Assembly (NCBI GenBank): GCA_043810775.1
Contig: JBDRNU010000025.1
Coordinates: 48,417-112,416, forward strand
Source of the DNA: an archaeon
Lineage (GTDB): Archaea; Nanobdellota; Nanobdellia; Pacearchaeales; GW2011-AR1
Reading direction: 5' to 3'
DNA length: 64,000 bases
Shown: one piece after another, positions 9,675 to 26,038 of the stretch
How positions within the stretch are numbered: the first letter of the stretch is position 1
How the letters are laid out: every line of letters starts with the position of its first letter
Notes under the pieces: model-generated
Database searches by the model: none
The model's input: the letters and a program-made list of their open reading frames with translations, nothing else
What the model was told of the DNA's origin: nothing
Made by a program: the position numbers and the translations under genes

Positions 9675-10015
9675 AAATAAAAAGAGGAGATATAGTGCTT
9701 GTAAATTTAGAACCTGTAAAAGGAAGTGAACAAGGTGGAGTGAGGCCTTGTTTAATTATTCAAAATGATAAAGGGAATAAATACAGCCCTCTGGCAATAA
9801 TTGCACCCTTAACTTCAAAAGAGTTTACAAAAGAGTTTGCAACTAATGTATTTGTTTCTAAAGAAGATTCAAAATTAGACAAAGACTCTACAATATTACT
9901 AAACCAAATAAAAACAATTGACAAGCGAAGAATAGTAAAAAAGATAAGCTTTTTAGACAGCGAAATTATGAAAAAAATTGACATGGCTATTAAAATAAGC
10001 TTGGGTTTGGTGTAG
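9662..10015 (+). CDS. mazF: MazF/PemK-family endoribonuclease toxin
   Basis: IKRGDIVLVNLEPVKGSEQGGVRPCLIIQND...SPLAIIAPLTSK matches the PemK/MazF N-terminal SH3-like signature. Confidence 0.85.
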   Translation: MEMVEIKRGDIVLVNLEPVKGSEQGGVRPCLIIQNDKGNKYSPLAIIAPLTSKEFTKEFATNVFVSKEDSKLDKDSTILLNQIKTIDKRRIVKKISFLDSEIMKKIDMAIKISLGLV

Positions 10016-11718: not shown

Positions 11719-11795
11719 TTTACTTCTCCTTAATTTATTTAACATAATAGAGTATTTAAATCTTTCTATTTGTCACTATTATTTAATGGTGACAA

Positions 11796-13541
11796 TTACT
11801 TGTTTTTTCCTTTAATCTTTCTTACAGTGCCATGATTCATTCTTAGCTCGAGTTCATCTCCGTTTTTCAGTACTTTTGTGGCTATTTTTGTGCCTATTAT
11901 GCAAGGTTTATTCATTTCTCGAGAGACTATAGCTGCATGGCTTGTAATCCCCCCTATATCAGTTATTACTGCTCTTGCTTTTCTCATTAGTTGGACAAAA
12001 TCTGGACGAGTCATTGGAGTAATTAGAATTTCATCTTCTGAAATTGTTTCTTTATAGGGATTTAAAATTACTTTAGCTTTTCCTAAAATAATTGGATTTT
12101 CACCTCTACAAGCTATGATTCCTTGGAAATTTTCTGTTTCAGAATGTGAATTTTCTTTTAAGAGTATATTTTTAATTGGAATTACATCATTTCCTGTAAA
12201 AAAGCTAATCTTATTTTTATTTTGAGATACTATAAAAATACCTTCTCTTCTTTCATTCAGTATATTTATATCAAGGTTTTTTTCAAGTAAATCTGGGAGT
12301 TCACTTATTTTTGCGTAAGATGTTAGTTTTGGTTCTAGTCCTGTTCTTTTTCCAAATTCTTCAAAAAATCTGAACATATGATGCAGCATCATTAGAACTA
12401 TCTTTTTTCTTTCGTCTTTTATCCATGTTACATTTTGAATGTGCTGTAGTTCTTGGTCTATTTCTGAAGGTATTTTAAATTGTTTTATTATATTATTTCT
12501 TTTTTCTTTAATTGCTTCTGTATCTTCAAGTTCATTAAGTTCTTTTTTTAAATCAGTTAGGGTAAATTCTTTTAGTGCTCCTTTTATAAATTCAGTGAAT
12601 TCTATTATTGAGAGTATTGTCCATTGCCCATATGAATTCTGCACCCAATAATAATTTTGCTGATGCTCTTGTATTGCTCTGAATATTTCTGGATAATTCA
12701 TTTTTAGTTCTGCTAGATAATCTGCATAAGGTAGATTTTTTATAAGATTTCTTTGACGAGGGCTTTGAAAGTATTTTAAAATTAATCTTAGGAAGTCTCT
12801 TCTTTCTCTTGCTACAAATGATAATTCAAATGGAAGTGTTAGAGTTGCAAATGATTCTTTTGCTTTTTTTTCATCACCAATTAGCTTTGTAATTTTTGGC
12901 ATGTAATAATCATCTAAATAATGATTATATGGTTCAACTACTAGGCCTACTTCCCAGAATTTTCCTAGAACTTTGTTAAATTTATTAAATTCTTCAACTA
13001 GTGCTTCATTTGATAAAGAATCAATTTTAATGAATTCTAGTCTTTTTAGGAATTTTTCTGTTTTTTCATAAATCTCTTCATATTCTTTTAAGAAGATTTC
13101 AATTTTTTCTGGATCTTCTTTTACTGCTTTTATTTGCGCTTTACAGCTTTCTAGTGATTCTTGGATACTTAGAATTTGTTTCATGTAGTCTTTTTCTGTG
13201 TAAAATATTGAGTGTGATAAGCAGGGTTTGAAGTATTTTTCAGTGTCTGACATTTTTAAGATTCCTATTTCAAGAGTTAAAGGAAGGCCTGGAGCTTCGT
13301 CTGTCCAGAATTTTTCTGTTTTTATATAATTCATAAACTGGTCTTTATTAATTTCTTCTATTTCTTGTTTTTTATTTAGGAATTTATCAAGGTCTTGTTT
13401 TTTATAACGTCTATCTCCACGATTACCTATTCTAATTGCTTTTAAAATTCCAGAATTATCCCAGTTTCTTAGGGTTATTTTACTAACTCCAAGTAGTTTA
13501 GCTGCTGAACTTATATCAATTAAATCTGTATTTTTAACCAT
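11796..13541 (-). CDS. MerR-type HTH + helical middle region + C-terminal PEP-utilizer mobile (phosphohistidine swivel) domain protein (581 aa)
   Basis: N-terminus ISSAAKLLGVSKITLRNWDNSGILKAIRIGNRGDRRYKKQDL (MerR/excisionase-like HTH). C-terminus MTRPDFVQLMRKARAVITDIGGITSHAAIVSREMNKPCIIGTK (swivel domain with the His). Confidence 0.85.
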   Translation of the reverse strand: MVKNTDLIDISSAAKLLGVSKITLRNWDNSGILKAIRIGNRGDRRYKKQDLDKFLNKKQEIEEINKDQFMNYIKTEKFWTDEAPGLPLTLEIGILKMSDTEKYFKPCLSHSIFYTEKDYMKQILSIQESLESCKAQIKAVKEDPEKIEIFLKEYEEIYEKTEKFLKRLEFIKIDSLSNEALVEEFNKFNKVLGKFWEVGLVVEPYNHYLDDYYMPKITKLIGDEKKAKESFATLTLPFELSFVARERRDFLRLILKYFQSPRQRNLIKNLPYADYLAELKMNYPEIFRAIQEHQQNYYWVQNSYGQWTILSIIEFTEFIKGALKEFTLTDLKKELNELEDTEAIKEKRNNIIKQFKIPSEIDQELQHIQNVTWIKDERKKIVLMMLHHMFRFFEEFGKRTGLEPKLTSYAKISELPDLLEKNLDINILNERREGIFIVSQNKNKISFFTGNDVIPIKNILLKENSHSETENFQGIIACRGENPIILGKAKVILNPYKETISEDEILITPMTRPDFVQLMRKARAVITDIGGITSHAAIVSREMNKPCIIGTKIATKVLKNGDELELRMNHGTVRKIKGKNK

Positions 13542-13590
13542 TTTTAGCTAATTTTGTATATTTAAGTTGATATATATTTATAATTAATTA

Positions 13591-13605
13591 TTTATAAATG
13601 TTTCG
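13591..13605 (-). promoter_or_regulatory. BRE/TATA-like promoter element (minus-strand reading CGAAACATTTATAAA) upstream of the 581-aa gene
   Basis: Plus-strand TTTATAAATGTTTCG lies about 50 nt upstream of the start at 13541. The same motif recurs upstream of several minus-strand genes. Confidence 0.45.
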
Positions 13606-13619
13606 ATTTATACGAACTT

Positions 13620-14948
13620 TTAAAGAATCTTTATTACACCAGTATTAGCATCTACTTCAACTTCTTGGCCGTCCTTTAAGACTTGTGTAGCTATTTTAGT
13701 TCCTATAATACAAGGCTTTCTTAGTTCACGAGCTACTATAGCAGCGTGGCAAGTAATTCCACCTTCATCTGTTATTATAGCAGAAGCTTTTTTACAAGCT
13801 GTTATGATATTTGGACGTGTCATTTCACTAACTAAGACGTCTCCTTCTTGCATATTTTTTATTTTTTCCAAGTGATTGTCAGCGTTTCTATAGGAAAGCA
13901 CTATAACCTTACCTTTTACTTTTCCTTTGTTTGCTATAGCTCCTTTTAATTCTTTTAAATCTAATTTTACAGATAAACTTTCTTTAATCTCTTTAGCTTT
14001 ATTTCCTTCAAGTATATTTATTTCATTATTTTTTAAAATAAATATTGAGCTTTCTTTTCTTTCCTGTAATATGCTTTTTTCAATTTTCTTTCCTGTTTCA
14101 AGCATTTTAGCTATTTCTTGATAATTGCAAAGTCTAAGCTCTTCTTTTGATATCTTAAGCCTGGTTTTTATTTCTTCTAGGATCAATTCATTATAATATA
14201 GGGCTTGCATCCAGATAAGCCTCATTCTAAATCTTTGCTCAGTTATATTTCTTAAGATATCTGAAATTAATACAGCTTCTCCTGGAATTTCAGAATTTTG
14301 AATTAAGCTCATTCTTTCTTTTTGATCTGCATCCTCTTCTTTGAATAAGACTTTTTTATTAAGATTTTTGTCTATTTTAGCTTCTTCTGACTTAATTGAT
14401 TCTGCAAATGATTTTAAGAAAGGATTATTTTTTTCATTAATGATGAATCTCTTTTTAGGAGTAGTCAAAGCAATTATTATTCCATCTATATCTTTTATTC
14501 CTTGACTGGTTAATAAATCTCTTAATTTTTTTTCTATTTTACTTATATTATGTGGTTGAGTTGCAATGTAGCTTATAAAACACTCTTTTATTCCCCTTCC
14601 AAAAGTATCTAGTAAGTTACTTAACTCTTCATTGCTTATTTCTTTGAAATCTTGTTCAGCTAGTTTTTGCATTTGGGTCACTATCGAACTGTAAGCAGTT
14701 TTTACTTCTTTTTCAAATTTCTTGAATTTAGTAGTACTTCTGAAAAATTCATATCCTTCATTTTCAGCTTTTTTAAGTTCTTCTTCTTGAACATAAAATT
14801 CAGCATTAAATCCATTACCCCATACTAGTGCTTGGCTTATTCCAAATCCAAATCTTTCTTTTAGTCTTGGACCGTAATTTAGCAAGATACCATTTAAGTC
14901 ATAGTAATTCTGATTTTCATCTGCCCACATTAAAATATATTTATTCAT
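13620..14948 (-). CDS. X-swivel protein: unassigned helical N-terminal region + C-terminal PEP-utilizer mobile domain (442 aa)
   Basis: C-terminus MTRPNIITACKKASAIITDEGGITCHAAIVARELRKPCIIGTK. The start overlaps the stop of the upstream 251-aa gene by 8 nt. Confidence 0.85.
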   Translation of the reverse strand: MNKYILMWADENQNYYDLNGILLNYGPRLKERFGFGISQALVWGNGFNAEFYVQEEELKKAENEGYEFFRSTTKFKKFEKEVKTAYSSIVTQMQKLAEQDFKEISNEELSNLLDTFGRGIKECFISYIATQPHNISKIEKKLRDLLTSQGIKDIDGIIIALTTPKKRFIINEKNNPFLKSFAESIKSEEAKIDKNLNKKVLFKEEDADQKERMSLIQNSEIPGEAVLISDILRNITEQRFRMRLIWMQALYYNELILEEIKTRLKISKEELRLCNYQEIAKMLETGKKIEKSILQERKESSIFILKNNEINILEGNKAKEIKESLSVKLDLKELKGAIANKGKVKGKVIVLSYRNADNHLEKIKNMQEGDVLVSEMTRPNIITACKKASAIITDEGGITCHAAIVARELRKPCIIGTKIATQVLKDGQEVEVDANTGVIKIL

Positions 14949-15696
14949 TTTGTCCTCTTTCTGTATATTCTCTGCATCTAGCTCTTACTTTATTATCGCT
15001 TTCTTGCACATATGCACTCCATTTTTCATAATTTAGATACTTCAGTCTTCTTATACCTGAATAAGCATCTGCCCAGATTCTTTCACCCAATTTTCTTCCT
15101 TGAACTATAAGTTCGTGAGCTTCTTGATCTCTAGCTGCTTTATCTCCAGCACGGTATTCCCATCCATTCATTGAATAGTATCTTGCATCTGCAGGTTTAA
15201 GGTCTTCTGGAGTTTTTCCTTGTTTTTTAGGAATAACTACTCTATTTACAAAGTCATTAGGGACTTCTGTGTCATCCATATCTTTTCCATAAACTTTATG
15301 TGTGAATTTTGTTCCTTCAAGAACTGTTTTGTATTTTCTTCCTTTTCTTTGACCTGCTTGTTTTTGATATTCTCCAAGAATATGTGTGTCTACTGCATAA
15401 ACTTTATCAGCTTGTCTTAATTTTTCTCTTGTTGAAGCTTTTCTACCAGTATTCCTAAGGGCCTCTATGTCTAAGTTATATCTACCTATACTTTCTTCTA
15501 AAGCTTGAATATGCTTATCTTCAATAGGATGGTTTTCTTTATTTCCTATATAGTCTGGATGACCCATGCCTTCGGCTGTAATCTCTAATTCACCTAAATG
15601 TGCTAGTTCATCTATTCTAGTCTGAGCTATAGCAGCAAGAGTTGTCCCTCTCCTACCCCCATAACATCCGACCAGAGCTTTGTATTTGTTTTTCAT
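14941..15696 (-). CDS. Hypothetical protein with by-eye resemblance to the low-molecular-weight phosphatase (LMW-PTP/ArsC) fold; divergent P-loop
   Basis: KALVGCYGGRRGTTLAA resembles ILVVCvGNiCRSPtAE. EITAEGMG resembles the SAG motif. ADKVYAVDTHILGE resembles the aDlIlvMd..h segment. The P-loop is C-x4-R rather than the canonical C-x5-R. SD-like GAGGT lies upstream. Confidence 0.55.
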   Translation of the reverse strand: MKNKYKALVGCYGGRRGTTLAAIAQTRIDELAHLGELEITAEGMGHPDYIGNKENHPIEDKHIQALEESIGRYNLDIEALRNTGRKASTREKLRQADKVYAVDTHILGEYQKQAGQRKGRKYKTVLEGTKFTHKVYGKDMDDTEVPNDFVNRVVIPKKQGKTPEDLKPADARYYSMNGWEYRAGDKAARDQEAHELIVQGRKLGERIWADAYSGIRRLKYLNYEKWSAYVQESDNKVRARCREYTERGQNE

Positions 15697-15773
15697 TTTA
15701 TTTTTATACCTCTTAATAATAGTAACATCTTTATATATTTAAAAGCTTTTCCTTGTTTTTTGTGAATTATAGG

Positions 15774-15787
15774 GAAAGTTTATATAG
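15774..15787 (+). promoter_or_regulatory. BRE/TATA-like element (GAAAGTTTATATAG) about 25 nt upstream of the Lrp-like ATG (leaderless-type spacing)
   Basis: Read directly in the divergent intergenic region 15697-15807. Confidence 0.4.
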
Positions 15788-15807
15788 TATTCCATATTTT
15801 AACAATT

Positions 15808-16788
15808 ATGATAGATATTGATGTAAAAGATAGGAAAATATTGTATTATCTTTCCCAAGATGGAAGAGCTAGTAATACTCATCTTTCAAAGAAAGTTGGG
15901 TTGAGTAAAAATGCTGTTGCATATAGAATTGAGAGACTGAAAAAATTAAAAGTTATAAAACACTTTGCTTCAATTGTAAATCTTGGAAGCTTAAATTTCA
16001 CTACTTTTACTGTTTTGTTAAAGTTTAATGAGGATATATATGAAAATAGTTCTATTATTGAGTATTTTAAAAGCCATGATTATGTTGATTGGATGGTCAG
16101 CTTGTCTGGGCAGTGGGACCTTTTTATTGAGTTTGTTTCCAGGGATTTTAACCATTTGACTGAGATAATAGAGGAAATTATAAGTTATTTTAAAGATACG
16201 CTTGAAACTTATGAGTTATCTTATTCTAGGGTGACTTTAAGAGTTGAGCATCTTGTAAAGGATTTTTACCAGGACTTAAAACTCAGTCCTATTAAGACTA
16301 GTGAGAGAACTAAGCAGATCTTTAAGCTAGATAAGATTGATAAGCAGATACTAGAAGTTCTAAATAAAGATTCTTCTCTTCCTTATCTTAGTATTGCTGA
16401 GAAATTAAAGACCAGTATTGATGTTGTGAGATATAGGATTAGTAATTTAGTTAGTAAAGGAGTGATAGTTAAATTTTTCCCAGAAATATCCCTTCCCAAG
16501 TTAGGTTATACTGAGTATTTGTATAGTTTAAGATTAAAGAACTTATCTTCTGAAAAATTTAGGGATATTCAGAATGATATAAAAAATAATAACAATATAA
16601 CTTATGCGTTTGTAGATAGTGTTAGTTTAAGGATTATTTTTGTCTGTGCATTTAAATCTCCAGAAGCTATAGATCATTTATCCAGAGGCTTAAGAAAAAA
16701 GTATATGGGCAGTATAGATAAACAGGAGTATCTTATAATTAAGGAACAGATGCTGTTTAATTTATTTCCCAGGGGATTAACTAAATAA
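15808..16788 (+). CDS. Tandem (duplicated) Lrp/AsnC-family transcriptional regulator (326 aa)
   Basis: Two AsnC-type HTH units: DRKILYYLSQDGRASNTHLSKKVGLSKNAVAYRIERLKKLKVIKHF and DKQILEVLNKDSSLPYLSIAEKLKTSIDVVRYRISNLVSKGVIVKF. Each is followed by ~100 aa of the right length for a RAM-like domain. Confidence 0.8.
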   Translation: MIDIDVKDRKILYYLSQDGRASNTHLSKKVGLSKNAVAYRIERLKKLKVIKHFASIVNLGSLNFTTFTVLLKFNEDIYENSSIIEYFKSHDYVDWMVSLSGQWDLFIEFVSRDFNHLTEIIEEIISYFKDTLETYELSYSRVTLRVEHLVKDFYQDLKLSPIKTSERTKQIFKLDKIDKQILEVLNKDSSLPYLSIAEKLKTSIDVVRYRISNLVSKGVIVKFFPEISLPKLGYTEYLYSLRLKNLSSEKFRDIQNDIKNNNNITYAFVDSVSLRIIFVCAFKSPEAIDHLSRGLRKKYMGSIDKQEYLIIKEQMLFNLFPRGLTK

Positions 16789-18516
16789 TTATTTTATGAC
16801 TTTTATTAGCCCGTGATGCATTCTTATTTCAATTTCTTGACCTGATTGAAGAACTTTTGTAGCATTTTTAGTGCCTATAATGCATGGTTTGTTCATTTCT
16901 CTTGAAACTATAGCTGCATGACAAGTTATTCCACCTTCATCTGTAATTACTGCTCTTGCTTTTCTCATTAGTGGGACGAAATCAGGACGAGTCATACTAG
17001 TAACTAGTATTTCATCTTCTGAAATTGTTTCTTTGTTAGGGTTGAGAATTACTTTTACTTTCCCCCGTATAATTGGTTCGCTGCCCCTACATGCGACGTT
17101 TCCCTCTATTTCATATACAGTCTTAGTCTCAATATTTTTTGAGACTAGTTTTTTAAATTCTAGAAATTCATTTCCTACTAGTATGCTGAATTTGTTTGGT
17201 TTTTGAGATATAAACGAGCAGCCATTACGCCTTTGCTGTAAAGTGGAAATTGGCATTGAATTTTGGAGTATAAGGGGGATTTCTTCTGTTTTTGCATATC
17301 CTATTAGTTTTTCATTAATTCCTGTTCTTCTTGCAAATTCTTCTATAAATCCGTGTATATTATGTAGATATATTAAAATAACTCTTTTTCTATCATCTTT
17401 AATCCATGTAATATTTTTTATATATTCTAACTCCTTTACTACTTTTTCAGGGATTTTTAATTCTTTAATTAGCTCTTCTTGTTCTTTTTTAAGAGCATCA
17501 AAATTTGTTATTTTGTCTAGTTCTTGTCTAGCTTGTTCAATTGTAGATTCTTTTATAGAGTCCCTTAAAATATTCAGAAAATCAGTTACTTGCAAAATTG
17601 TTCTATCTAGATAATTGTTTTGAACCCAAAAAAATTCTCTTTGGTGTTTTAAAAGAGCTTCAAAGAATTTGGGTTCGTTAATTTTTATATATGTTAAGAA
17701 ATCTTCGTTTGAATCATTCATAATTTTTTTTCTTTTTTTATTATTGTTTAGATATTTTATAATCATATTTAGAAGGCTTTTTCTTTCTTCAGCTGTGAAT
17801 GAGGACTTTGTTGGAAGAGTCAGCAATGAAAAAGCATGTCTTGCTTTTTTCTTGTCACTTGCTTTTTTCTCAAAATCTAGGTAATAAAGGTCTGTAAATG
17901 GGTCGTGTGATTCAACAAGTAAATTAATATTCCAAAATTCAATTAAAGGCTTGTTAAATAAATTAAATTCTTTTAATAGTTCTTCTGTTGAAAGTTCTTT
18001 GAGTCTAATAAATTCTAAACGAGTCATTGCTGTTTCAAATTTTTTAGATCGCTTAGCCCATTCTTTAAAGAAATTTTCTATTTTTTTTGGATTTTTATTT
18101 ACTGCTTCAAACTGGGCCCTACAATTTTCAATAGATTCTGATAAACTTAAAGATTGGATTATAAAATCATTTTCTGATAAATGTGGGTAGAAGGTTACTC
18201 CTGGTTTAAACCAATTTTCCATTTTAGCGCCCTCTTTAATTCCTAGTTCTGCTGTAATAGGGAGTCCTGGAAGTTCTTGAAACCAGAAATCATTGTGTTT
18301 TACCCAGTTCCAGAAGAATTCTTTGTCAATTTCTGGACATTTTTCCTTATTTAAAAGCTTGTTTATATCCTCTTTTTTATAACGTCTATCTCCACGATTA
18401 CCTATTCTTACTGCTTTTAAAGTCCCAGAATTATCCCAGTTTCTAAGGGTTTTCTTACTAATCCCTAGCTGTTCTGCAGCTGTATTTATTCCAACTAATT
18501 CTTCATTTTTAGCCAT
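16789..18516 (-). CDS. MerR-type HTH + helical middle region + C-terminal PEP-utilizer mobile domain protein (575 aa)
   Basis: N-terminus INTAAEQLGISKKTLRNWDNSGTLKAVRIGNRGDRRYKKEDI. C-terminus MTRPDFVPLMRKARAVITDEGGITCHAAIVSREMNKPCIIGTK. Confidence 0.85.
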   Translation of the reverse strand: MAKNEELVGINTAAEQLGISKKTLRNWDNSGTLKAVRIGNRGDRRYKKEDINKLLNKEKCPEIDKEFFWNWVKHNDFWFQELPGLPITAELGIKEGAKMENWFKPGVTFYPHLSENDFIIQSLSLSESIENCRAQFEAVNKNPKKIENFFKEWAKRSKKFETAMTRLEFIRLKELSTEELLKEFNLFNKPLIEFWNINLLVESHDPFTDLYYLDFEKKASDKKKARHAFSLLTLPTKSSFTAEERKSLLNMIIKYLNNNKKRKKIMNDSNEDFLTYIKINEPKFFEALLKHQREFFWVQNNYLDRTILQVTDFLNILRDSIKESTIEQARQELDKITNFDALKKEQEELIKELKIPEKVVKELEYIKNITWIKDDRKRVILIYLHNIHGFIEEFARRTGINEKLIGYAKTEEIPLILQNSMPISTLQQRRNGCSFISQKPNKFSILVGNEFLEFKKLVSKNIETKTVYEIEGNVACRGSEPIIRGKVKVILNPNKETISEDEILVTSMTRPDFVPLMRKARAVITDEGGITCHAAIVSREMNKPCIIGTKNATKVLQSGQEIEIRMHHGLIKVIK

Positions 18517-18563
18517 TTTTTAATAATTTTAGCTTTTTTAGTTGGAATTAGTTGACCTTTGCA

Positions 18564-18592
18564 TTTATAAATGTTTCGGTTAAAGGGTATTT
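18564..18592 (-). promoter_or_regulatory. BRE/TATA-like promoter plus conserved upstream box (plus strand TTTATAAATGTTTCGGTTAAAGGGTATTTA)
   Basis: Lies between the stop of the 553-aa gene and the start of the 575-aa gene. GGTTAAAGGGTATTTA is repeated at 20313-20328. Confidence 0.45.
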
Positions 18593-18608
18593 AAAAAGAA
18601 GTTAGGGA

Positions 18609-20270
18609 CTACTTTTCTAGAATCCTAATTACTCCGTGATTTGCATCTACTTCAACTAAGTCACCTGTTTTTATTGTCCTAGTAGCAGATTTTGTACCTA
18701 CTATGCATGGAACTCCAAGCTCGCGAGAAACAATAGCAGCATGGCAAGTAATTCCTCCTTCATCTGTGACTAGGGCAGAGGCTTTTTTCATAGCTGGTAG
18801 AAAGTCAGGAGTAGTCATACCTGTAATTAGTATCTGGCCTGGTTTTATTTTATGAGTATTAGCTAGAGTAATAGCTACAAAAGCTTCTCCAACTACTTTT
18901 CCAGGTGAAGCACTAATACCTTGCAGATCTTTTACATCTCCAATATGATCTCCCAAGATTTTTTCATGCTCTTTTGAGGCATGAATTCCACTCCAGGTGG
19001 AGATTTTTCCATTGTTGTTAAAATAAAGAAAGTGTTCTTTTCTCTGGTTTATTTCGTTTTCATTTAACTCACCTTTTTGCAGTATTGAAATTATTTCTTC
19101 AGGGAGACACCAATCTAGTAGTGATGCATGAACTTTTGAGCGTTTTGAGATTTCATCAAGAATCTGAAATTCATAATAATTGTACTTCATCTGAACTTCT
19201 TTTCTAAAATCATGATAAATAAACAGCCTATCTAGGATTCTTAGGTATTCTGCAAGCTCTTTATCTTTTGATAAGTTATACTCCTTTTCAACAGCATTTT
19301 TTTCCTTTTTTGCTTTTTCTTTGTATTTTTGAATTTCATCAAGCTCATTTTGCACTTCTTTTTCTGATTTTTTATTACTTTTAATTTCTGAGTCAAAGTA
19401 TGAAAAATCTTTTCCTTTTTCTCTAGGCCAACCTAAATTTGTCCACCAGAATAGTTCAACTAGTTTTTGTATTCTTGCTTTAAATTCTTGTGAACTATTA
19501 ATAATTCTCCCAGATTTTAAATCTTTAATAGTTTCTAAAACCATTTTTCTTTCATCATTTAGATAAGAAAGCTGGCTTGGCATTGTAGATATATTATAAA
19601 TTCTGATAAATTCTCTTTCAGTGTATTTCTCTTTTAGTTTGTTTTTTAAGATGTTCTTAATTTTTTCATTTATATCAATTGCCAGACTTTCATCAGTTCC
19701 ATCAATTGCCATAACTATGCTATAAAATTCATAAATAATTTGAGCGAATTTTTTATAATGTAAAGCTAGTTCTGAGGTTTTCATTTTTTCAACTTTTTCT
19801 TTAGGAGTGTTTTTAATAAATGCTAGAAGCTCTGCTGATTTTTCATCCCATGATTTGAAGAAATTGTTTTCAAAATCTTTTGAGCTTAGGAATTTTTCAA
19901 TTACTTTTTTACCTATTTCATACAAATTATTTTTATCATAGTACCAGAACAAGGTGCTATTTTCAAAGTAATTCATTAAATATTTAGCATTAATATCAAA
20001 ATATTTTTTAATCCCACTTCTTAACGCTTCTAGTGGGTGTATTGATTGATGATAGCTTGTACCGCTTCGAATATATTCTAGCCATTCTATCTTCTTTTGT
20101 TTTGATTTTTCTAAGAATTCTAGGAGGTCTTGTTCTCTGTACTTTCTATCTCCTCTTGCACCTACTCTTACTGCTTTAAGCTTTCCCTCTCGATCCCATT
20201 TTCTTAAAGTTATGGGTTTGATGCCTAGCTTTTTAGCTGCTTCTTGTAAATTTAGTAGATTTTCAGCCAT
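18609..20270 (-). CDS. MerR-type HTH + helical middle region + C-terminal PEP-utilizer mobile domain protein (553 aa)
   Basis: N-terminus LQEAAKKLGIKPITLRKWDREGKLKAVRVGARGDRKYREQDL. C-terminus MTTPDFLPAMKKASALVTDEGGITCHAAIVSRELGVPCIVGTK. Confidence 0.85.
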   Translation of the reverse strand: MAENLLNLQEAAKKLGIKPITLRKWDREGKLKAVRVGARGDRKYREQDLLEFLEKSKQKKIEWLEYIRSGTSYHQSIHPLEALRSGIKKYFDINAKYLMNYFENSTLFWYYDKNNLYEIGKKVIEKFLSSKDFENNFFKSWDEKSAELLAFIKNTPKEKVEKMKTSELALHYKKFAQIIYEFYSIVMAIDGTDESLAIDINEKIKNILKNKLKEKYTEREFIRIYNISTMPSQLSYLNDERKMVLETIKDLKSGRIINSSQEFKARIQKLVELFWWTNLGWPREKGKDFSYFDSEIKSNKKSEKEVQNELDEIQKYKEKAKKEKNAVEKEYNLSKDKELAEYLRILDRLFIYHDFRKEVQMKYNYYEFQILDEISKRSKVHASLLDWCLPEEIISILQKGELNENEINQRKEHFLYFNNNGKISTWSGIHASKEHEKILGDHIGDVKDLQGISASPGKVVGEAFVAITLANTHKIKPGQILITGMTTPDFLPAMKKASALVTDEGGITCHAAIVSRELGVPCIVGTKSATRTIKTGDLVEVDANHGVIRILEK

Positions 20271-20298
20271 TTTAACTTGTTATAAGTTATTATAAGTA

Positions 20299-20328
20299 TA
20301 TATAAATCTTTTGGTTAAAGGGTATTTA
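20299..20328 (-). promoter_or_regulatory. BRE/TATA-like promoter plus conserved upstream box (plus strand TATATAAATCTTTTGGTTAAAGGGTATTTA)
   Basis: Upstream of the 553-aa gene start (20270). It overlaps the stop codon of the isochorismatase-like gene. Confidence 0.4.
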
Positions 20329-20922
20329 CATTGATGAAATTATTTCATCAGAATTAGAGATAATACAAATATTTGGAAAGATATTTTTTATAACAAAGTC
20401 GTGCAGTTCCTGGCTCATACTTGCGCAGCAGTCTTCTACAACTATGACTTGATGGTTTTCATCTGCAGCTCTTCGTGCAACTGCTTCAACTACCCAGTTT
20501 GTTGCTACTCCTGTTAAAAGTAGTGTTTGTATGCCTTGAATTTGCTTTTCAAAATCAGGGTTTGTGTATGGGCTTATTCTTGATTTTGAGATTACTGGTT
20601 CATTATCAAGAGGTTTTAGCTCTTCGTGGATTTCAGCTCCCCAGGTCCCTTTTAACATAGCTTTGAATTGGGGAGTCATTTTTTGAAGTGGCTCAAAGCT
20701 GGATTCAACTTCTGGGTAGCCTTCAGTGTATTCTACTTTTACAAAAACTACTTTTACTCCTAAAGAGCGAGCTTTTTCAAGTAGTTTCTTTGTGTTTTGT
20801 ATGGCATTCTGCTTTTTTGCGTGTTCCATAATGCCCATTCCAGCTACTTTGCCTTTTTCGTGGATCATGTCATTTTGCATATCTAGAACCAATAGAGCTG
20901 TATTTTCTTTATTTACTTCCAT
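20326..20922 (-). CDS. Isochorismatase-family (cysteine hydrolase) protein
   Basis: NTALLVLDMQNDMI near the N-terminus, LLLTGVATNWVVE, and VVEDCCAS (catalytic Cys region) are typical of the isochorismatase/nicotinamidase fold. Confidence 0.8.
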   Translation of the reverse strand: MEVNKENTALLVLDMQNDMIHEKGKVAGMGIMEHAKKQNAIQNTKKLLEKARSLGVKVVFVKVEYTEGYPEVESSFEPLQKMTPQFKAMLKGTWGAEIHEELKPLDNEPVISKSRISPYTNPDFEKQIQGIQTLLLTGVATNWVVEAVARRAADENHQVIVVEDCCASMSQELHDFVIKNIFPNICIISNSDEIISSM

Positions 20923-20959
20923 AAATTTTAAATAGATTTAGATTATTTAAGTTTTTCGA

Positions 20960-22390
20960 TTAGAGAATTCTTACTATACCTTTATCTGCGTCTATTTCAA
21001 CTAGGTCGCCTGTTTTTAGGATTTGAGAAGCTATTTTAGTGCCGACTATGCATGGAATTTTTAGTTCACGAGAGACAATGGCTGCATGACAGGTGACTCC
21101 TCCTTCATCTGTGATTATAGCTCCTGCAAACCTCATTAGTGGTGCAAATTCTGGACGAGTCATTCCAGTGACTAGGATTGTCCCTTGCTTAAAATCAGTT
21201 GCTTTAAATGGGTCTCTTACGATTCTTACTATTCCTTGAACTTTGCCTGGATAAGCTGACTGTCCTGTAATTAACTTATCTGATGATTTTTGTTTTTCTT
21301 GGGAAAGGTAGATTCTATCTATTTGTTGTTTTATTGTGTCAAAGGTATTATATTCTTCTTCTATTTGCCCGTTATAATATGCTATTATAGAGTATCCTTT
21401 TAGTCTTTTCTTAATATAATTTTTATTTTCTTTTAAGTAGCTTATTCCTTGAATTAGCTCTTCAAAATTATAATAATATATTAAGTCTTTTTCTAAACCA
21501 GCTTCATTAAACATTTTTTGAGCTACTCTAAACTGAATTGTGATTCCTTTGGAAATTGGGTCTTTTCTTGAGTCTCTTATATTAATTATCTCTTGTATGT
21601 AATGGACAAGTTTTTTTTCATCCTGGTTTAATTTATTTAAGAATTCTTGAAATTGATTTAGTTTTTCTTCTGATGCTTCTGGAATTTCTGAGTCTTCATA
21701 TTTTTCTTTTAATAGGTCTTGGACTATTTCTGGGCTTTCAACGTTTTTATAATCTGCAAACTGGTATTGGAGTTTTTCTGAGACTATTTGCCAGTTTTTG
21801 TGTTTTTTTGTAATTTCCATAGCAGCTAATTGCCTTTTTTTGTCAAATGAATCACTTATTGGAGTGGTAGCTTGGTCCCAGATTTGATTTAGCCTTTGTT
21901 TTGTAATTGGTATTTTAAGTTCTTTTATTAGTTTAATACACATTGACTTGTCAAATTGAGTTGCAAACCAGGCTAGGCAGTTTAAGTGACGTACAGAATC
22001 AATTATTTCTTTAAGATAGTTTAGAATTGTATCATAATTATTTTTTTGGATAAAGTCATAAGTAAGTTTATTGTATATTTTATCTATTTTATCACTAAAT
22101 TCTTTGAAAATTTTCTTTCTTTCTTGTAATTTATTTGGATTTTTCCAGTATTGCCTGAAAAAATCTTCAGCCATATTATTATAAGTTGTTTCTGACATGA
22201 ATACAATTCCTTCGTCTTGTTTCATTGTTATTAGAAAAGTCATGTTTAAAGGCAGTGTGTAATATAATTCATGAAAATTAGGGGCAAATCCTCCTGCTCC
22301 GTTTGCTAGCATTGTTACATTATGTACAGGTGGGTAGAATCTATGGCCTCTCATTATTTCTAGAAACTTATCCATTAGTGTAGGCTTCAT
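20960..22390 (-). CDS. X-swivel protein (476 aa): unassigned N-terminal region + C-terminal PEP-utilizer mobile domain
   Basis: C-terminus MTRPEFAPLMRFAGAIITDEGGVTCHAAIVSRELKIPCIVGTK. The start overlaps the upstream stop (ATGA). Confidence 0.85.
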   Translation of the reverse strand: MKPTLMDKFLEIMRGHRFYPPVHNVTMLANGAGGFAPNFHELYYTLPLNMTFLITMKQDEGIVFMSETTYNNMAEDFFRQYWKNPNKLQERKKIFKEFSDKIDKIYNKLTYDFIQKNNYDTILNYLKEIIDSVRHLNCLAWFATQFDKSMCIKLIKELKIPITKQRLNQIWDQATTPISDSFDKKRQLAAMEITKKHKNWQIVSEKLQYQFADYKNVESPEIVQDLLKEKYEDSEIPEASEEKLNQFQEFLNKLNQDEKKLVHYIQEIINIRDSRKDPISKGITIQFRVAQKMFNEAGLEKDLIYYYNFEELIQGISYLKENKNYIKKRLKGYSIIAYYNGQIEEEYNTFDTIKQQIDRIYLSQEKQKSSDKLITGQSAYPGKVQGIVRIVRDPFKATDFKQGTILVTGMTRPEFAPLMRFAGAIITDEGGVTCHAAIVSRELKIPCIVGTKIASQILKTGDLVEIDADKGIVRIL

Positions 22391-23925
22391 TTTTTCATAC
22401 CTATTTTTCTAATTATTCCAGTTGAACCGTGAATTTCAACTATTTCACCGTTTTTAAGCACTTTTGTACCAATCTTAGTGCCTACAACACAAGGAACTCC
22501 AAGCTCGCGAGAAACAATAGCAGCATGGCAAGTAATTCCCCCCTCGTCTGTTATGATTGCTGAAGCCAGCCTCATAGCTGGAACAAAATCAGGAGTAGTC
22601 ATTGTAGCCACTAGAATTTCACCTTTTTGCATTTCATTGACTTTGCTAGGATCTAGCAAGACTCTCACATTACCTAGAGCATTTCCAGGGTTGGCTGTTG
22701 TTCCTTTAATTTCTGTTACAGTTTGGTCTATTTTTTCTACAAATGCATCAAATATCTTGTCTGCTTCTTGTCCAGAATATGCTGAAAACTTTCCTTGGAT
22801 GCAGTAGAAAAATCCTTTTTCATTTCTTCTTTCAAGCTCTTTTTTATCAATTTTGTTTTTAAGCAGAGCTTCTTTTAGTTCATTAAATAAGAGCATGTTA
22901 AGTAATTGCCTTGGAATGTTAAGTCTTTTTGCTGTTTCTTTTCTCCAATTAATCATGTGATAATGAGATATAGTGTATTTCTCTTTTTTAAAGTCAAGAA
23001 GATAGCCTGAATCAGCGATTTCTTGGAATAATCTAACTATTTCTTTATGGAGTTTAAGTTCTGTTATAATTTGATTCTTTTTTGCTTTAATATTTTCAGA
23101 GTATTTTTCAAGTTCGCTTATCTTATCTTGCACTTTAATTTTGCTTTTTAATCTGTCTTTTATAACAGTTAGAAAATAATCCAAATCCCATATTGCACTT
23201 CCATAATCATATGGTACCCACGAGAATTTTTTTTCATGCTCTAAGAGTTTTTTGTAAAATGGTTGAAAATTTTTTAAAGATTCTTTAATTTTCTTTATTT
23301 CTTTAATATCAAATACCTTTTCTAGGGCTTTATTTCCTTTGACTTCTTTTATTAGCTTAAATAATTCTAGTTCTTCTTTATTGACAAAGCTTGGAGTATC
23401 AGGTGTTATCAGTGTTGTTATATATGAGTCTAGTATTTTTTTATCATTTATTTTATCTTGGATTTCTTTTTTCAGCTCTTCTACAAATCCAAACCTTAGT
23501 CCCCAACTAACCATTTCACTATATGGGTATGCTTCAAGGTATAACTTATAGTATTCCCTGTATATTTCAAATAGTTCTTCATTACTCTTCTTTGTCAAAT
23601 CTTTATTTGAAATTTCAAGCGTAAACTTATTCAGTGTTCCCACTTTTTCTTTGAAGTTTTTTATAAGATTTTTTACTGAAAGTTTATTGCTCTTTGCATT
23701 TTTGATTACTGTGTTTTCAAATTTACTAAAGAAATCTTCACGAAAAACCCAGTACATTCTTCCTTTTTTAAATGCTACTACTAAGTCTCTTAAACTTTCT
23801 CCTAAGACTTCTGCTACGTTTGAGGTTGCTCCTTCCATTATTGGTAGAGCTAGTATCATATTAACATCATTATTGCTTCTTTCTTGGGCTATTACTAATC
23901 CTTTTGGGCTTATTTTTATTTTCAT
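22387..23925 (-). CDS. X-swivel protein (512 aa)
   Basis: C-terminus MTTPDFVPAMRLASAIITDEGGITCHAAIVSRELGVPCVVGTK. ATGA overlaps at both junctions. Confidence 0.85.
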   Translation of the reverse strand: MKIKISPKGLVIAQERSNNDVNMILALPIMEGATSNVAEVLGESLRDLVVAFKKGRMYWVFREDFFSKFENTVIKNAKSNKLSVKNLIKNFKEKVGTLNKFTLEISNKDLTKKSNEELFEIYREYYKLYLEAYPYSEMVSWGLRFGFVEELKKEIQDKINDKKILDSYITTLITPDTPSFVNKEELELFKLIKEVKGNKALEKVFDIKEIKKIKESLKNFQPFYKKLLEHEKKFSWVPYDYGSAIWDLDYFLTVIKDRLKSKIKVQDKISELEKYSENIKAKKNQIITELKLHKEIVRLFQEIADSGYLLDFKKEKYTISHYHMINWRKETAKRLNIPRQLLNMLLFNELKEALLKNKIDKKELERRNEKGFFYCIQGKFSAYSGQEADKIFDAFVEKIDQTVTEIKGTTANPGNALGNVRVLLDPSKVNEMQKGEILVATMTTPDFVPAMRLASAIITDEGGITCHAAIVSRELGVPCVVGTKIGTKVLKNGEIVEIHGSTGIIRKIGMKK

Positions 23926-24974
23926 TTTGCTTTTTTTAGTATTTTAATTATACCTTTATCTGCATCTACTTCTACTATATCATTATCATTTAAAACTTTT
24001 GTGGCTATCTTAGTTCCTATAATGCATGGTATTTTCATCTCTCGGGCTACAATTGAGGCATGACAAGTTATACCTCCTTCATCTGTTACTATTGCAGCAG
24101 CTTTTTTTAAATATTTGACTATTTCAGGACGAGTCATTGGTGCTACTAAGATAAAATCTTTTTTGTTTTTGAAGATTTTTTTGTAATTTCCATAATCTTT
24201 TTCTGTTATTTTTATTACTTGGCCTTTTGCGAATCCAGTGTAAGCTGAATTTCCTGATATTTGGTTCTTTTCACTAAGTTTTGGTTCTTGATTTACTAAG
24301 AAATTTTCAATTTCTTCTGCTTCTTTATTCAAGTAAATATTGAATTGATTATTAATAATTGTAATTGCTAGGGGTCTATTTTCTGTTATTTTTATTTTAT
24401 TTCCTTTTAATATATTAATAATTTCTTCTGAGGTAGCTCTTTCAAGTTGTTTAATCTTATATTCTAATTTTTTTTGTATATACTTTATTATTTTATTATA
24501 TGCTCTCCATATTAGGTCTACAAATTTGGAAAGTTTTATTCTTATTTCTGGTAGCTCTTTTAATAATTTGGAGTCATTTGTGTCAAAATATTCTTCTGTG
24601 TAAAATAAGTATGTTTTATAAAGTTCAAGGCATTGGTTATTTAGAAAGTTCATTCCTTTAATTGCTTTATCTTTATCTAGTTTTGAATTAATGAAACTCT
24701 TTACTTTCTGCTTGTTATTTTTTATATATTTCAAGCTATCTGAATTTATTTTATTTATTAGTTTTTCATCAGAAAGCTTTATTTTTGAAGCTTGTTCATC
24801 CCAGACTTGAAAATTTTTATTTTGAAAAACTACCAAATTAGGTGTTTTGTTTGCAATAATCTTGTAATATGGATTATTAATATGTGCATGGCAGGCATAT
24901 TCCCATGATATGACTGGAGTTATTGAAAACACTTCATATTTACTGAATTTATGTGTTTTTAGAAGGGTTATCAT
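23922..24974 (-). CDS. X-swivel protein (350 aa)
   Basis: C-terminus MTRPEIVKYLKKAAAIVTDEGGITCHASIVAREMKIPCIIGTK. ATGA overlaps at both junctions. Confidence 0.85.
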   Translation of the reverse strand: MITLLKTHKFSKYEVFSITPVISWEYACHAHINNPYYKIIANKTPNLVVFQNKNFQVWDEQASKIKLSDEKLINKINSDSLKYIKNNKQKVKSFINSKLDKDKAIKGMNFLNNQCLELYKTYLFYTEEYFDTNDSKLLKELPEIRIKLSKFVDLIWRAYNKIIKYIQKKLEYKIKQLERATSEEIINILKGNKIKITENRPLAITIINNQFNIYLNKEAEEIENFLVNQEPKLSEKNQISGNSAYTGFAKGQVIKITEKDYGNYKKIFKNKKDFILVAPMTRPEIVKYLKKAAAIVTDEGGITCHASIVAREMKIPCIIGTKIATKVLNDNDIVEVDADKGIIKILKKAK

Positions 24975-26038
24975 TTTATAATTCTCACTATACCTTTATC
25001 TGCATCTACTTCAACCAAGTCTCCATCTTTTAATAGCTGAGTGGCTATTTTTGTGCCGATTACACAAGGAACTCCAAGCTCGCGAGAAACAATAGCAGCG
25101 TGTGATAGTAGGCCCCCCTCATCTGTTATAATAGCTGCTGCTTTTTTGCAGGCTAGAATAGTATCTGGGCGAGTCATTTCTGTAACTAGAATTTCACCTT
25201 TTTTAAATTTAAATACTTCTTTAAGGATGTTCTTTTTATTATGAAGAAGAATTCTTACTTTGCCGCTAGCTTTTCCTTTCATTGCTGTTTTACCTATAAG
25301 TTTATTTACTTTTTTAACAGATAGCATTTCCTTGTATATTTTTTTAAATTTTTTGCCAGTTATTAAGGACGGCTTGCCTTTTAGAGTGTAAAATAAGTAT
25401 CCTCTTGATCTTTCTTCAAGAATCTTGTGAGAAACTTTCTTACCATTGAAAATTTTTATGATCTCTTGATTATTATAAAAAAATAAATCTTTTACTTTAA
25501 CTTGAAATCTTCTTGAAATTTCTTTAAGCACTACACCTAGAAGAAAATAGAATAAAACCTCCCCTTCTTTTCTCAAAATAAATCTTAATTTGCTTAAATC
25601 TATAATTAAACTTTCATGTTTTGACGCTTCTTTTTCCAGGTTAAACAGGAAAAAATCCTCTGTTTTCATATAAATATTAGAATAATTAACTAAAGTTTTT
25701 AGAATATTATTAAAAAATAAACTTTTTAATTGGGAATTAGACAGATTTTTAATTTTTATATTATTAAAATATTGCTTTGTTTTTTCAATTTCCTTAAGTA
25801 TTTGTTGGACCTGCTTCTTGTAATTTTTAATATTTCCATTATTTGTGAAGAATTTATAGCCATATCCTGCTGTTTTCTTGTCTCTGTCATTTAAATAATA
25901 AACGTGAATGACTGAATTTTTGTAAAGAATGAGCATGTCATTTGCAAAAAGCTCTATGCTCTTATTGGATAGGAAAAATAGGGGTAGCCTAAGCTCCCTT
26001 GCCCAGAATGTTATTTTGTATATTCCTTTTGGCAACAT
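24971..26038 (-). CDS. X-swivel protein (355 aa)
   Basis: C-terminus MTRPDTILACKKAAAIITDEGGLLSHAAIVSRELGVPCVIGTK. The start lies 1 nt after the stop of the 1667-aa gene. Confidence 0.85.
   Translation of the reverse strand: MLPKGIYKITFWARELRLPLFFLSNKSIELFANDMLILYKNSVIHVYYLNDRDKKTAGYGYKFFTNNGNIKNYKKQVQQILKEIEKTKQYFNNIKIKNLSNSQLKSLFFNNILKTLVNYSNIYMKTEDFFLFNLEKEASKHESLIIDLSKLRFILRKEGEVLFYFLLGVVLKEISRRFQVKVKDLFFYNNQEIIKIFNGKKVSHKILEERSRGYLFYTLKGKPSLITGKKFKKIYKEMLSVKKVNKLIGKTAMKGKASGKVRILLHNKKNILKEVFKFKKGEILVTEMTRPDTILACKKAAAIITDEGGLLSHAAIVSRELGVPCVIGTKIATQLLKDGDLVEVDADKGIVRIIK

What the first reader, a model, noticed from the sequence alone, without database searches (positions are those of the whole stretch)
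11796..20270. Three MerR-type HTH proteins fused to a phosphohistidine swivel domain
Seen: the 581-, 575- and 553-aa proteins (11796-13541, 16789-18516, 18609-20270) start with (A)A..LG(I/V)S..TLR.WD..G.LKA(V/I)R(I/V)G.RGDR.Y...D, a MerR/excisionase-like HTH. They end in an intact swivel domain. Each has its own BRE/TATA-like promoter, unlike the tightly overlapping HTH-less members. Inference: a DNA-binding domain coupled to a phospho-His carrier suggests transcription control by His phosphorylation, or DNA-tethered phosphotransfer. That would be a signalling logic distinct from two-component systems and from PTS-regulated PRD proteins. I know of no characterised MerR-swivel fusion.
Basis: partly seen in the sequence, partly recalled or inferred. 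Interest (0 to 1): 0.8.

Follow-up and report, generated by a model that had tools for sequence, protein, structure and literature searches.

The report
DNA-binding subunits of a split dikinase
Three genes fuse a DNA-binding domain to the substrate-binding and phospho-histidine half of a rifampin-phosphotransferase-like kinase, and a repeat conserved across their own promoters in archaea and bacteria suggests they switch their own kinase gene cluster on and off.

Summary
All three ORFs (581, 575 and 553 aa) score above Pfam thresholds for HTH_17/MerR at the N-terminus and for PEP-utilizers at the C-terminus.

The ~400-aa middle plus the swivel fold like the rifampin-binding and swivel domains of rifampin phosphotransferase. 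The HTH superposes on BldC and Xis.

The proteins are therefore the substrate-binding/phospho-His half of a split HpeHI/PpsAB-type dikinase. The ATP-grasp half occurs once in the cluster, at the start of the 1667-aa ORF. Five HTH-less paralogues sit nearby.

The same cluster recurs in Woesearchaeota and in CPR-like bacterial contigs, usually with one HTH member. Phased AAGTT/AACTT half-sites exactly 10 bp apart lie over the core promoter of the HTH gene in 9 of 17 loci. Shuffles gave at most 2, and controls gave 1 of 130. The 553-aa gene carries such a site at 20274-20298. This points to autoregulation.

The catalytic His is kept in 25 of 26 fusions. Control of DNA binding by His phosphorylation remains untested.

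Verdict: an uncharacterised variant of known parts, moderately interesting.

The parts
18609..20270 (-). 553-aa protein: HTH (about aa 3-56), RIF-binding-domain-like middle (about aa 60-445), swivel with His510 (about aa 449-552)
   Evidence: Pfam. AF2 model pLDDT 90.1. Foldseek top hit RPH-Lm 5fbu, E 2e-15; HTH matches BldC 6amk at rmsd 1.2 A.
16789..18516 (-). 575-aa protein: HTH (about aa 5-58), RIF-binding-domain-like middle, swivel with His533
   Evidence: Pfam. AF2 model pLDDT 90.2, pTM 0.84. Foldseek: RPH-Lm E 1.7e-14; Xis 4j2n at rmsd 1.2-1.3 A (chains A and C); BldC.
11796..13541 (-). 581-aa protein with the same architecture, 49% identical to the 575-aa protein
   Evidence: Pfam. Alignments A1 and A2. 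Own domain HMMs.
20274..20298 (-). Candidate operator of the 553-aa gene. Three half-sites in 10-bp register, reading TACTT-N5-AACTT-N5-AAGTT on the coding strand, between the TATA box and the ATG.
   Evidence: Only perfect AACTT/AAGTT spacing-10 pair in the 64-kb window. Phased one-mismatch third site. The same element precedes homologous genes in 8 other loci.
18539..18553 (-). Degenerate version of the operator (AACTA-N5-AACTA), 10 nt downstream of the TATA box of the 575-aa gene
   Evidence: Sequence reading. Sits at about the position of the perfect sites, which lie 11 nt after the TATA box in L002, L003, L008 and L167. Weak: two mismatches.
20298..20312 (-). BRE/TATA-like promoter of the 553-aa gene
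   Evidence: Pattern match.
18563..18577 (-). BRE/TATA-like promoter of the 575-aa gene
   Evidence: Pattern match.
13590..13604 (-). BRE/TATA-like promoter of the 581-aa gene. No phased operator pair follows it.
26040..31043 (-). 1667-aa ORF: PPDK_N ATP-grasp (aa 16-324, the only one in the cluster), three middle+swivel modules and a truncated fourth swivel. Presumed phospho-donor for all swivel proteins.
   Evidence: Pfam PPDK_N 327 bits; 4 PEP-utilizers stretches. Own HMMs. A stand-alone or fused PPDK_N is present in L001, L004, L007, L008, L035 and L169.
13620..14948 (-). 442-aa HTH-less middle+swivel paralogue
20960..26038 (-). Four overlapping or abutting HTH-less middle+swivel paralogues of 476, 512, 350 and 355 aa
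18578..18593 (-). Specific to this window; function unknown.
20313..20328 (-). Overlaps the stop codon of the isochorismatase gene.
20326..20922 (-). Isochorismatase-family hydrolase. A recurrent neighbour, also present in L007.
32750..33451 (+). His_Phos_1 phosphatase-family protein. A recurrent neighbour of these clusters (L003, L004, L008, L088).

Best explanation
**What the proteins are.** Each of the three proteins is the substrate-binding plus phospho-His ('swivel') half of a split ATP-dependent dikinase of the rifampin-phosphotransferase / HpeHI / PpsAB kind. An N-terminal BldC/Xis/MerR-type winged HTH has been added.

**Proposed mechanism.**
- The ATP-grasp half, encoded once in the cluster at the N-terminus of the 1667-aa ORF, loads the conserved His. 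This step is inferred from the family mechanism.
- The swivel then delivers the phosphate to a small molecule held in the rifampin-binding-domain-like middle. The substrate is unknown.
- The HTH binds AAGTT/AACTT half-sites spaced one helical turn apart. These lie over the transcription start region of the protein's own gene or operon, so the HTH-fused paralogue represses itself and acts as the cluster's dedicated regulator. The conservation and position of the site are shown; binding is inferred.
- All fusion members but one keep the catalytic His and the family's D-x-R-K motif. They are therefore most likely 'trigger enzymes'. Substrate occupancy and/or the phosphorylation state of the swivel would change the availability or oligomeric state of the HTH and relieve repression. 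This last step is inferred and untested.
For: **Domains**
- Pfam scores are above threshold for both end domains.
- Two AF2 models have pLDDT 90.
- Foldseek top hits are RPH-Lm 5fbu/5fbt/5hv1, E 1e-14 to 2e-15 over about 580 columns. The HTH matches Xis 4j2n and DNA-bound BldC 6ama/6amk at rmsd 1.1-1.7 A.
- The HTH profile hits Xis, MerR regulators and BldC by sequence.

**Split-dikinase precedent**
- HpeI is the ATP-grasp component. HpeH carries the RIF-BD-like and swivel domains, and the same GGxT(S/C)HAA motif lies near its C-terminus (PMC12167813; PMC4844700).

**Conserved cluster**
- One PPDK_N, several middle+swivel genes and one HTH member recur in L001-L004, L007, L008, L035, L088, L167 and L169.
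- In L035, L088 and L169 the HTH gene leads the operon.
- Window paralogues share 53% identity in the swivel but 20% in the middle. This fits one shared ATP-grasp partner and diversified ligand pockets.

**Operator**
- Perfect half-site pairs occur in 9 of 17 upstream regions.
- In the first 14 regions there are 8 perfect pairs at spacing 10 and none at any other spacing from 5 to 17.
- Shuffles gave at most 2 regions in 5000 trials. Control upstream regions gave 1 of 130.
- 10 of the 12 perfect pairs in about 203 kb lie in those 1.4 kb.
- In L002, L003 (one mismatch), L008 and L167 the site starts 11 nt after the TATA box. In bacterial-type promoters it lies over or after the -10.

**Catalytic residues**
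- His533, D374, R376, K377 and R429 are kept in 25 of 26 fusion proteins.
Against: - No binding, phosphorylation or activity data exist.
- The operator motif was defined from the same loci on which it was then counted.
- 8 of 17 loci lack a perfect pair. These include the 581-aa gene (none) and the 575-aa gene (only a two-mismatch version).
- Half-site orientation varies between inverted, everted and direct, which is unusual for a symmetric dimer.
- One fusion representative (P0027) has Tyr in place of the His. Phosphorylation may therefore be dispensable for at least some members.
- I could not superpose coordinates, so the position of D-x-R-K opposite the His is not shown. A sequence alignment to an RPH-like protein did not place RPH's Arg666/Glu667 on it.
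- A crude NJ tree does not make the HTH members one clade.
Confidence: 0.6

Rival explanations
1. Ligand-sensing regulator that no longer works as an enzyme. The dikinase body serves only as a small-molecule sensor, as the sugar-kinase fold does in ROK repressors. The swivel is a structural remnant, and phosphorylation plays no part in control.
For: - The operator evidence applies equally to this reading.
- P0027 has lost the His.
- HTH members make up only about 7% of the nearest relatives (10 of 150 representatives), as expected for a specialised offshoot.
Against: - 25 of 26 fusions keep the His, the preceding Thr and the D-x-R-K and R429 residues. These are also near-invariant in the HTH-less family.
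- The swivel is as conserved in HTH members as in the enzymes.
Confidence: 0.2
2. DNA-directed enzyme. The HTH tethers the phosphotransfer module to DNA so that DNA, or something bound to it, is the phosphate acceptor. This resembles the way the carbohydrate-binding modules of glucan, water dikinase target a polymer, and is the reader's 'DNA-tethered phosphotransfer'.
For: - The HTH is Xis/BldC-like, and such domains also serve in non-transcriptional DNA transactions.
- A DNA alkylation repair gene lies next to the cluster in L035.
Against: - The conserved sites are sequence-specific and confined to the proteins' own promoters, at repressor-like positions.
- The middle domain has the closed helical pocket fold of a small-molecule binder.
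- HTH-less paralogues with the same body are the majority.
Confidence: 0.08
3. The AAGTT repeats are bound by some other factor or are a promoter-architecture element. The fused HTH would then have a different role, such as protein-protein contact or binding to another site like the reader's 16-bp box.
For: - No binding data exist.
- TrmB- and Lrp-type regulators lie near some clusters: window 15808-16788 and 33714-34469, and L010.
- The 16-bp box is exact at two adjacent promoters in the window.
Against: - The HTH-fusion gene is the only gene common to all loci that carry the repeats, in both archaeal-type and bacterial-type promoters.
- Neighbouring regulators vary between loci.
- The 16-bp box is absent from all other loci.
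- The HTH is the most conserved part of the protein outside the swivel.
Confidence: 0.1

Closest known systems
Two-component small-molecule dikinases HpeHI, PpsAB and CreHI, and single-chain rifampin phosphotransferase (RPH)
   Same: - The middle and swivel domains fold like RPH's RIF-binding and swivel domains.
- The GGxT(C/S)HAA phospho-His motif lies within about 50 residues of the C-terminus.
- The ATP-grasp is encoded as a separate unit nearby, as for HpeI and PpsB (PMC12167813; PMC4844700).
   Different: - An N-terminal DNA-binding HTH is present.
- Up to nine swivel-bearing ORFs share one ATP-grasp.
- The ATP-grasp is fused to three further modules in a 1667-aa protein.
- The hosts are DPANN archaea and CPR-like bacteria rather than aromatic-degrading bacteria.
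- No NCBIfam model reaches its cutoff.
- The substrate is unknown.
BldC and Xis-type (HTH_17) MerR-like winged-helix proteins
   Same: - The fold matches at rmsd 1.1-1.7 A with 26-39% identity.
- There is no MerR coiled-coil dimerisation helix.
- The candidate sites are variable numbers of short repeats in helical register, like the BldC sites (PMC5859096).
   Different: - BldC and Xis are free-standing proteins of about 55-70 aa.
- Here the domain is fused to a roughly 500-aa enzyme body.
- The half-site is AAGTT, whereas BldC recognises AATT-N4-C.
- Inverted arrangements occur as well as direct ones.
Enzyme-regulator fusions ('trigger enzymes'): BirA, PutA, NadR and ROK repressors such as Mlc and NagC (from my own knowledge)
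   Same: An HTH is fused to an enzyme or enzyme-derived ligand-binding body, and it autoregulates the pathway's own genes.
   Different: The enzyme fold and chemistry are unrelated. None of these uses a mobile phospho-His carrier loaded by a separate ATP-grasp protein.
PTS-controlled PRD regulators such as LicT, MtlR and LevR, and the PPDK-derived regulatory His kinase VadK
   Same: His phosphorylation from a PEP-utilizer-family chain is used for regulation (VadK: PMC13400623).
   Different: - There are no PRD, EIIA or EIIB domains.
- The phosphate would come from ATP through an ATP-grasp, not from PEP through EI and HPr.
- VadK has no DNA-binding domain and was reported not to act transcriptionally.

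Membership tests
Classical MerR family | N-terminal winged HTH of MerR type | tested here: met
   PF00376 at 30-31 bits (cutoff 28.2) and PF13411 at 29-33 bits (cutoff 21.6). The profile hits MerR regulators 5e01 and 5d8c at E 7e-5. Foldseek matches HiNmlR at rmsd 2.0 A.
Classical MerR family | Long C-terminal coiled-coil dimerisation helix followed by an effector-binding region | tested here: not met
   In both AF2 models the HTH (ending about aa 55-57) is followed by a low-confidence linker and then a beta/alpha subdomain of the RIF-BD-like body. There is no MerR-like alignment beyond about aa 61.
Classical MerR family | Palindromic operator inside an over-long (19-20 bp) -35/-10 spacer | tested here: not met
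   Candidate sites lie downstream of the TATA box or over and after the -10. Promoters with TTGACA have spacers of about 17 nt, as read in L009 and L088.
BldC / Xis-like HTH_17 proteins | MerR-like winged HTH without a dimerisation helix | tested here: met
   PF12728 at 38-39 bits (cutoff 27). Xis 4j2n at E 3e-6. BldC 6amk at rmsd 1.2 A.
BldC / Xis-like HTH_17 proteins | Binding to short repeats in helical register | not testable with these tools
   Only indirect evidence: conserved AAGTT/AACTT half-sites exactly 10 bp apart upstream of 9 of 17 genes.
RPH / two-component small-molecule dikinase (HpeH, PpsA, CreH component) | C-terminal swivel domain with the GGxT(S/C)HAA phospho-His motif | tested here: met
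   PF00391 at 77-92 bits. The motif is invariant.
RPH / two-component small-molecule dikinase (HpeH, PpsA, CreH component) | Rifampin-binding-domain-like helical substrate domain N-terminal to the swivel | tested here: met
   Foldseek: RPH-Lm is the top hit for both models, E 1e-14 to 2e-15, about 580 aligned columns, TM(query) 0.48-0.52. NCBIfam RIF_Ptrans_rph aligns to aa 290-551 of the 553-aa protein, below cutoff.
RPH / two-component small-molecule dikinase (HpeH, PpsA, CreH component) | Separate ATP-grasp (PPDK_N) partner encoded nearby | tested here: met
   PPDK_N at aa 16-324 of the 1667-aa ORF. Stand-alone PPDK_N genes of 312-333 aa occur in L004, L007, L035 and L169.
RPH / two-component small-molecule dikinase (HpeH, PpsA, CreH component) | Phosphotransfer residues of the substrate domain (RPH Arg666/Glu667/Lys670) | tested here: inconclusive
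   A near-invariant D-x-R-K motif and a conserved Arg exist in the family.
RPH / two-component small-molecule dikinase (HpeH, PpsA, CreH component) | ATP-dependent phosphorylation of a small molecule via phospho-His | not testable with these tools
   Needs biochemistry.
PEP synthase / PPDK (the database name of these ORFs is 'PEP-utilizing enzyme') | PEP/pyruvate-binding TIM-barrel domain (PF02896) and a central, not C-terminal, swivel | tested here: not met
   No PF02896 hit in any cluster ORF. NCBIfam PEP synthase models score 83-128 bits against cutoffs of 598-740.
PTS-regulated PRD transcription regulators | PRD and EIIA/EIIB-like domains | tested here: not met
   No such Pfam hits.

The most novel reading that the evidence does not exclude
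The HTH-fused paralogues are transcription factors whose DNA binding is set by the phosphorylation state of a mobile swivel histidine. That histidine is loaded in trans by a shared ATP-grasp protein and discharged onto a small-molecule ligand. This would be a signalling scheme distinct from two-component systems and from PTS/PRD control, and it would be shared between DPANN archaea and CPR bacteria together with its operator.
Probability: 0.25. Interest if true: 0.8.

Novelty: new variant of a known kind. Interest (0 to 1): 0.6.

Why it matters
- **A large unstudied family.** The profile search gave 1,825 clusters at 50% identity with E <= 1e-10. Among the 150 best, ATP-grasp-less 'substrate domain + swivel' modules predominate. 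They come from the contigs of small-genome archaea and bacteria and are currently labelled only 'PEP-utilizing enzyme'.
- **A reading of what they are.** They look like interchangeable acceptor subunits of a split rifampin-phosphotransferase-like dikinase.
- **An experimental handle.** The HTH-fused member and its conserved operator allow the inducer of the operator to be sought, and that inducer should point to the substrate.
- **A possible new mode of control.** If phospho-His controls DNA binding, this would be a new way of coupling ATP-dependent phosphotransfer to transcription.
- **Transfer between domains of life.** The same operator sits under archaeal BRE/TATA promoters and bacterial -35/-10 promoters. 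A regulator and its site therefore appear to have moved between domains and stayed functional.

Tried and rejected
TAAATACCCTTTAACC is exact twice in the window, but matches with up to 3 mismatches are at chance level (3 found, 1.8 expected). It is absent near every homologous gene in 1.87 Mb of fetched loci. I rejected it as the family's operator. It remains unexplained locally.
2. **Sequence search of the middle domain against PDB.** Neither the single protein nor the profile hit anything beyond the HTH and swivel. Only fold comparison found RPH.
3. **Mapping RPH catalytic residues.** hhalign of the HTH+middle profile against an RPH-like Bacillus protein gave probability 0.2. An HMM alignment put D-x-R-K opposite D-D-H-H.
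4. **Anti-phage defence system.** PADLOC matched only the HTH, to the small mad1 protein. The other cluster proteins gave nothing.
6. **Metagenome and genome scans.** They yielded few extra full-length members: L007-L010, L035 and L087-L089. Most hits were HTH-only proteins of Patescibacteria.
7. **Monophyly of HTH members.** A crude NJ tree splits them into at least two groups plus singletons. It is too weak to decide between one fusion event and several.
8. **Palindrome-only model.** AACTT-N5-AAGTT was too narrow. Allowing either orientation of the half-site revealed the pattern.

Full report
**1. The observation**

The three ORFs are as described: 11796-13541, 16789-18516 and 18609-20270, all on the minus strand, of 581, 575 and 553 aa.

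- Pfam places HTH_17, MerR and MerR_1 above their curated cutoffs at about aa 5-58 of each protein.
- Pfam places PEP-utilizers at 77-92 bits at each C-terminus.
- The phospho-His motif GGIT(C/S)HAAIVSRE is intact.
- Each gene follows a 55-92 nt gap containing a BRE/TATA-like match. The window has 12 such matches against 4.1 expected.

NCBI names all three only 'MAG: PEP-utilizing enzyme [archaeon]'.

**2. The middle 400 residues**

No sequence library names this region.

- AlphaFold2 models of the 575-aa and 553-aa proteins are confident: pLDDT 90.2 and 90.1, pTM 0.84 and 0.82.
- For both, the six best Foldseek hits in the PDB are the Listeria rifampin phosphotransferase structures, at E 1e-14 to 2e-15 over about 580 columns. 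PPDK, PEP synthase and Enzyme I match only the swivel.
- The N-terminal ~50 residues superpose on mycobacteriophage Xis (rmsd 1.2 A, 39% identity) and on DNA-bound BldC (rmsd 1.1-1.7 A). A profile of the HTH hits Xis, MerR regulators and BldC by sequence.

The architecture is therefore a BldC/Xis-type wHTH, a RIF-binding-domain-like substrate domain and a swivel. There is no ATP-grasp in the chain.

**3. The surroundings**

The minus-strand stretch 11796-31043 holds nine ORFs ending in a swivel domain. Only one PPDK_N ATP-grasp is present, at the start of the 1667-aa ORF. That ORF continues with three more middle+swivel modules.

Among the eight smaller paralogues, the swivels are 53% identical on average and the middles only 20%. 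This is the pattern expected if all swivels dock on one ATP-grasp while the substrate pockets have diverged.

Split enzymes of this kind are known. In HpeHI, PpsAB and CreHI the ATP-grasp protein loads a His on a separate RIF-BD-like + swivel protein, which then phosphorylates a phenolic substrate (PMC12167813). RPH is the single-chain version (PMC4844700).

**4. Relatives**

A word-based search found only 11 full-length relatives, all with the same HTH-to-swivel architecture.

An exhaustive profile search with HTH+middle found 7,690 representatives at E <= 1e-3 and 1,825 at E <= 1e-10. The architectures of the best 150 were as follows.

| Architecture | Count among best 150 |
|---|---|
| Middle + swivel only | 111 |
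| HTH + middle + swivel | 10 |
| Multi-module fusions | about 20 |
| RPH-like ATP-grasp + middle + swivel | 1 |

Named genome hits are Candidatus Woesearchaeota (45% identity) and, for the 553-type, a Parcubacteria MAG and other bacterial MAGs. The 553-aa protein is closest to members on bacterial-looking contigs: 47% to L088 and 40% to L035.

The gene neighbourhood is conserved. One PPDK_N, several middle+swivel genes and one HTH member recur. A His_Phos_1, HD or isochorismatase-family hydrolase often accompanies them. In L035, L088 and L169 the HTH gene is the first gene of the operon that holds the rest.

**5. A conserved DNA element**

Reading the upstream regions of the HTH genes side by side showed AAGTT or AACTT half-sites exactly 10 bp apart. 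The extended consensus is (T/A)(A/T)T-AAGTT-A. Orientation can be inverted, everted or direct, and some loci have three sites in register.

- Perfect pairs occur in 9 of 17 independent upstream regions.
- In the first 14 regions there are 8 perfect pairs at spacing 10 and none at any other spacing from 5 to 17.
- 5000 composition-preserving shuffles gave at most 2 regions, and 0 in 97% of trials. Only 1 of 130 other upstream regions has a pair.
- 10 of the 12 perfect pairs in about 203 kb lie in these 1.4 kb.

In the window, the 553-aa gene has three phased half-sites at 20274-20298, running from the 3' edge of its TATA box to 4 nt before the ATG. The 575-aa gene has a two-mismatch version (AACTA-N5-AACTA, 18539-18553) at about the usual distance from its TATA box. 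The 581-aa gene has none.

In L002, L003, L008 and L167 the site begins 11 nt after the TATA box. In L009, L010, L035, L088 and L169 it lies over or just after the -10 of TTGACA-type promoters. Both placements are repressor-like.

The only gene common to all these loci is the HTH fusion itself, so autoregulation by its HTH is the simplest reading.

**6. Enzyme or sensor?**

25 of 26 HTH-fusion proteins keep the phospho-His, the preceding Thr, and D374, R376, K377 and R429 (575-aa numbering). R376, K377 and R429 are also near-invariant across the HTH-less family; D374 is the majority residue there but below that level. One representative, P0027, has Tyr instead of His.

I could not show that D-x-R-K faces the His, because no coordinates were available and the sequence alignments to RPH were uninformative.

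Retention of the catalytic set favours a bifunctional 'trigger enzyme' over a dead sensor. It does not show that phosphorylation controls DNA binding.

**7. Verdict**

- **Confirmed:** the observation.
- **Partly supported:** the interpretation. A DNA-binding, probably autoregulatory role is supported by new evidence.
- **Corrected:** the proposed operator, which is not the 16-bp box.
- **Reframed:** the proteins are halves of a small-molecule dikinase rather than bare phospho-carriers.
- **Open:** phospho-control of DNA binding.

I found no description of this fusion in the papers searched or in NCBIfam.

It is a new variant built from known parts, in a large uncharacterised family of DPANN and CPR organisms.

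Noticed in passing
window 26040-31043 (-): The 1667-aa ORF is PPDK_N plus three middle+swivel modules. It ends with a truncated extra swivel copy (...GIVRSCHAAIVAEKLKKPTIVGT...), which looks like a partial tandem duplication. Similar multi-module giants of 1500-2309 aa exist among the representatives (P0035, P0037, P0041, P0075).
   Followed up: partly
window 14941-15696 (-): A 251-aa ORF overlaps the start of the 442-aa paralogue by 8 nt, so the two are probably co-translated. It has no Pfam, NCBIfam or PADLOC hit. Its N-terminal VGCYGGRRGT resembles a phosphatase P-loop; this is from memory and untested.
   Followed up: partly
window 10984-11745 (-); L007 8913-9656: The 253-aa ORF just downstream of the 581-aa gene has no family hit. 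It does have a 29%-identical homologue downstream of the HTH-fusion gene in a Woesearchaeota MAG.
   Followed up: partly
window 18578-18593 and 20313-20328: An exact 16-bp repeat TAAATACCCTTTAACC (coding strand) lies directly 5' of the BRE of two adjacent promoters. With the BRE/TATA, the two promoters match at 29 of 32 positions. The repeat is not seen in other loci. It may be a local promoter duplication or a site for another regulator, such as the adjacent double Lrp/AsnC protein.
   Followed up: partly
P0056 (623 aa) and P0096 (193 aa): These proteins consist of 8 and 3 tandem copies, respectively, of the same HTH_17-type domain.
   Followed up: no
P0027 (579 aa): This HTH-fusion representative has Tyr in place of the phospho-His, with K377R and T509P as well. 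It may be a member that has given up phosphotransfer.
   Followed up: no
L009, L010, L035, L088, L169 versus window, L002, L003, L008, L087, L167: The same AAGTT operator and HTH-fusion gene sit under bacterial TTGACA/-10-type promoters in some contigs and under archaeal BRE/TATA promoters in others. This suggests the system has moved between CPR-like bacteria and DPANN archaea. The HTH alone is 50-67% identical to HTH_17 proteins of Patescibacteria.
   Followed up: partly
window 256-7830 (+) and 41570-49210 (+): Two giant secreted or surface proteins (2524 and 2546 aa) end in a transmembrane segment followed by a similar short basic tail (...GY..E(E/Q)IR.....W.KDI...).
   Followed up: no
window 15808-16788 (+): A 326-aa protein carries two AsnC-type HTH domains in tandem. 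It is transcribed divergently from the 251/442/581 gene string and abuts the stop codon of the 575-aa gene.
   Followed up: no
window 9662-10015 (+): A MazF/PemK-type toxin gene (117 bits) has no obvious antitoxin ORF of at least 100 aa upstream.
   Followed up: no
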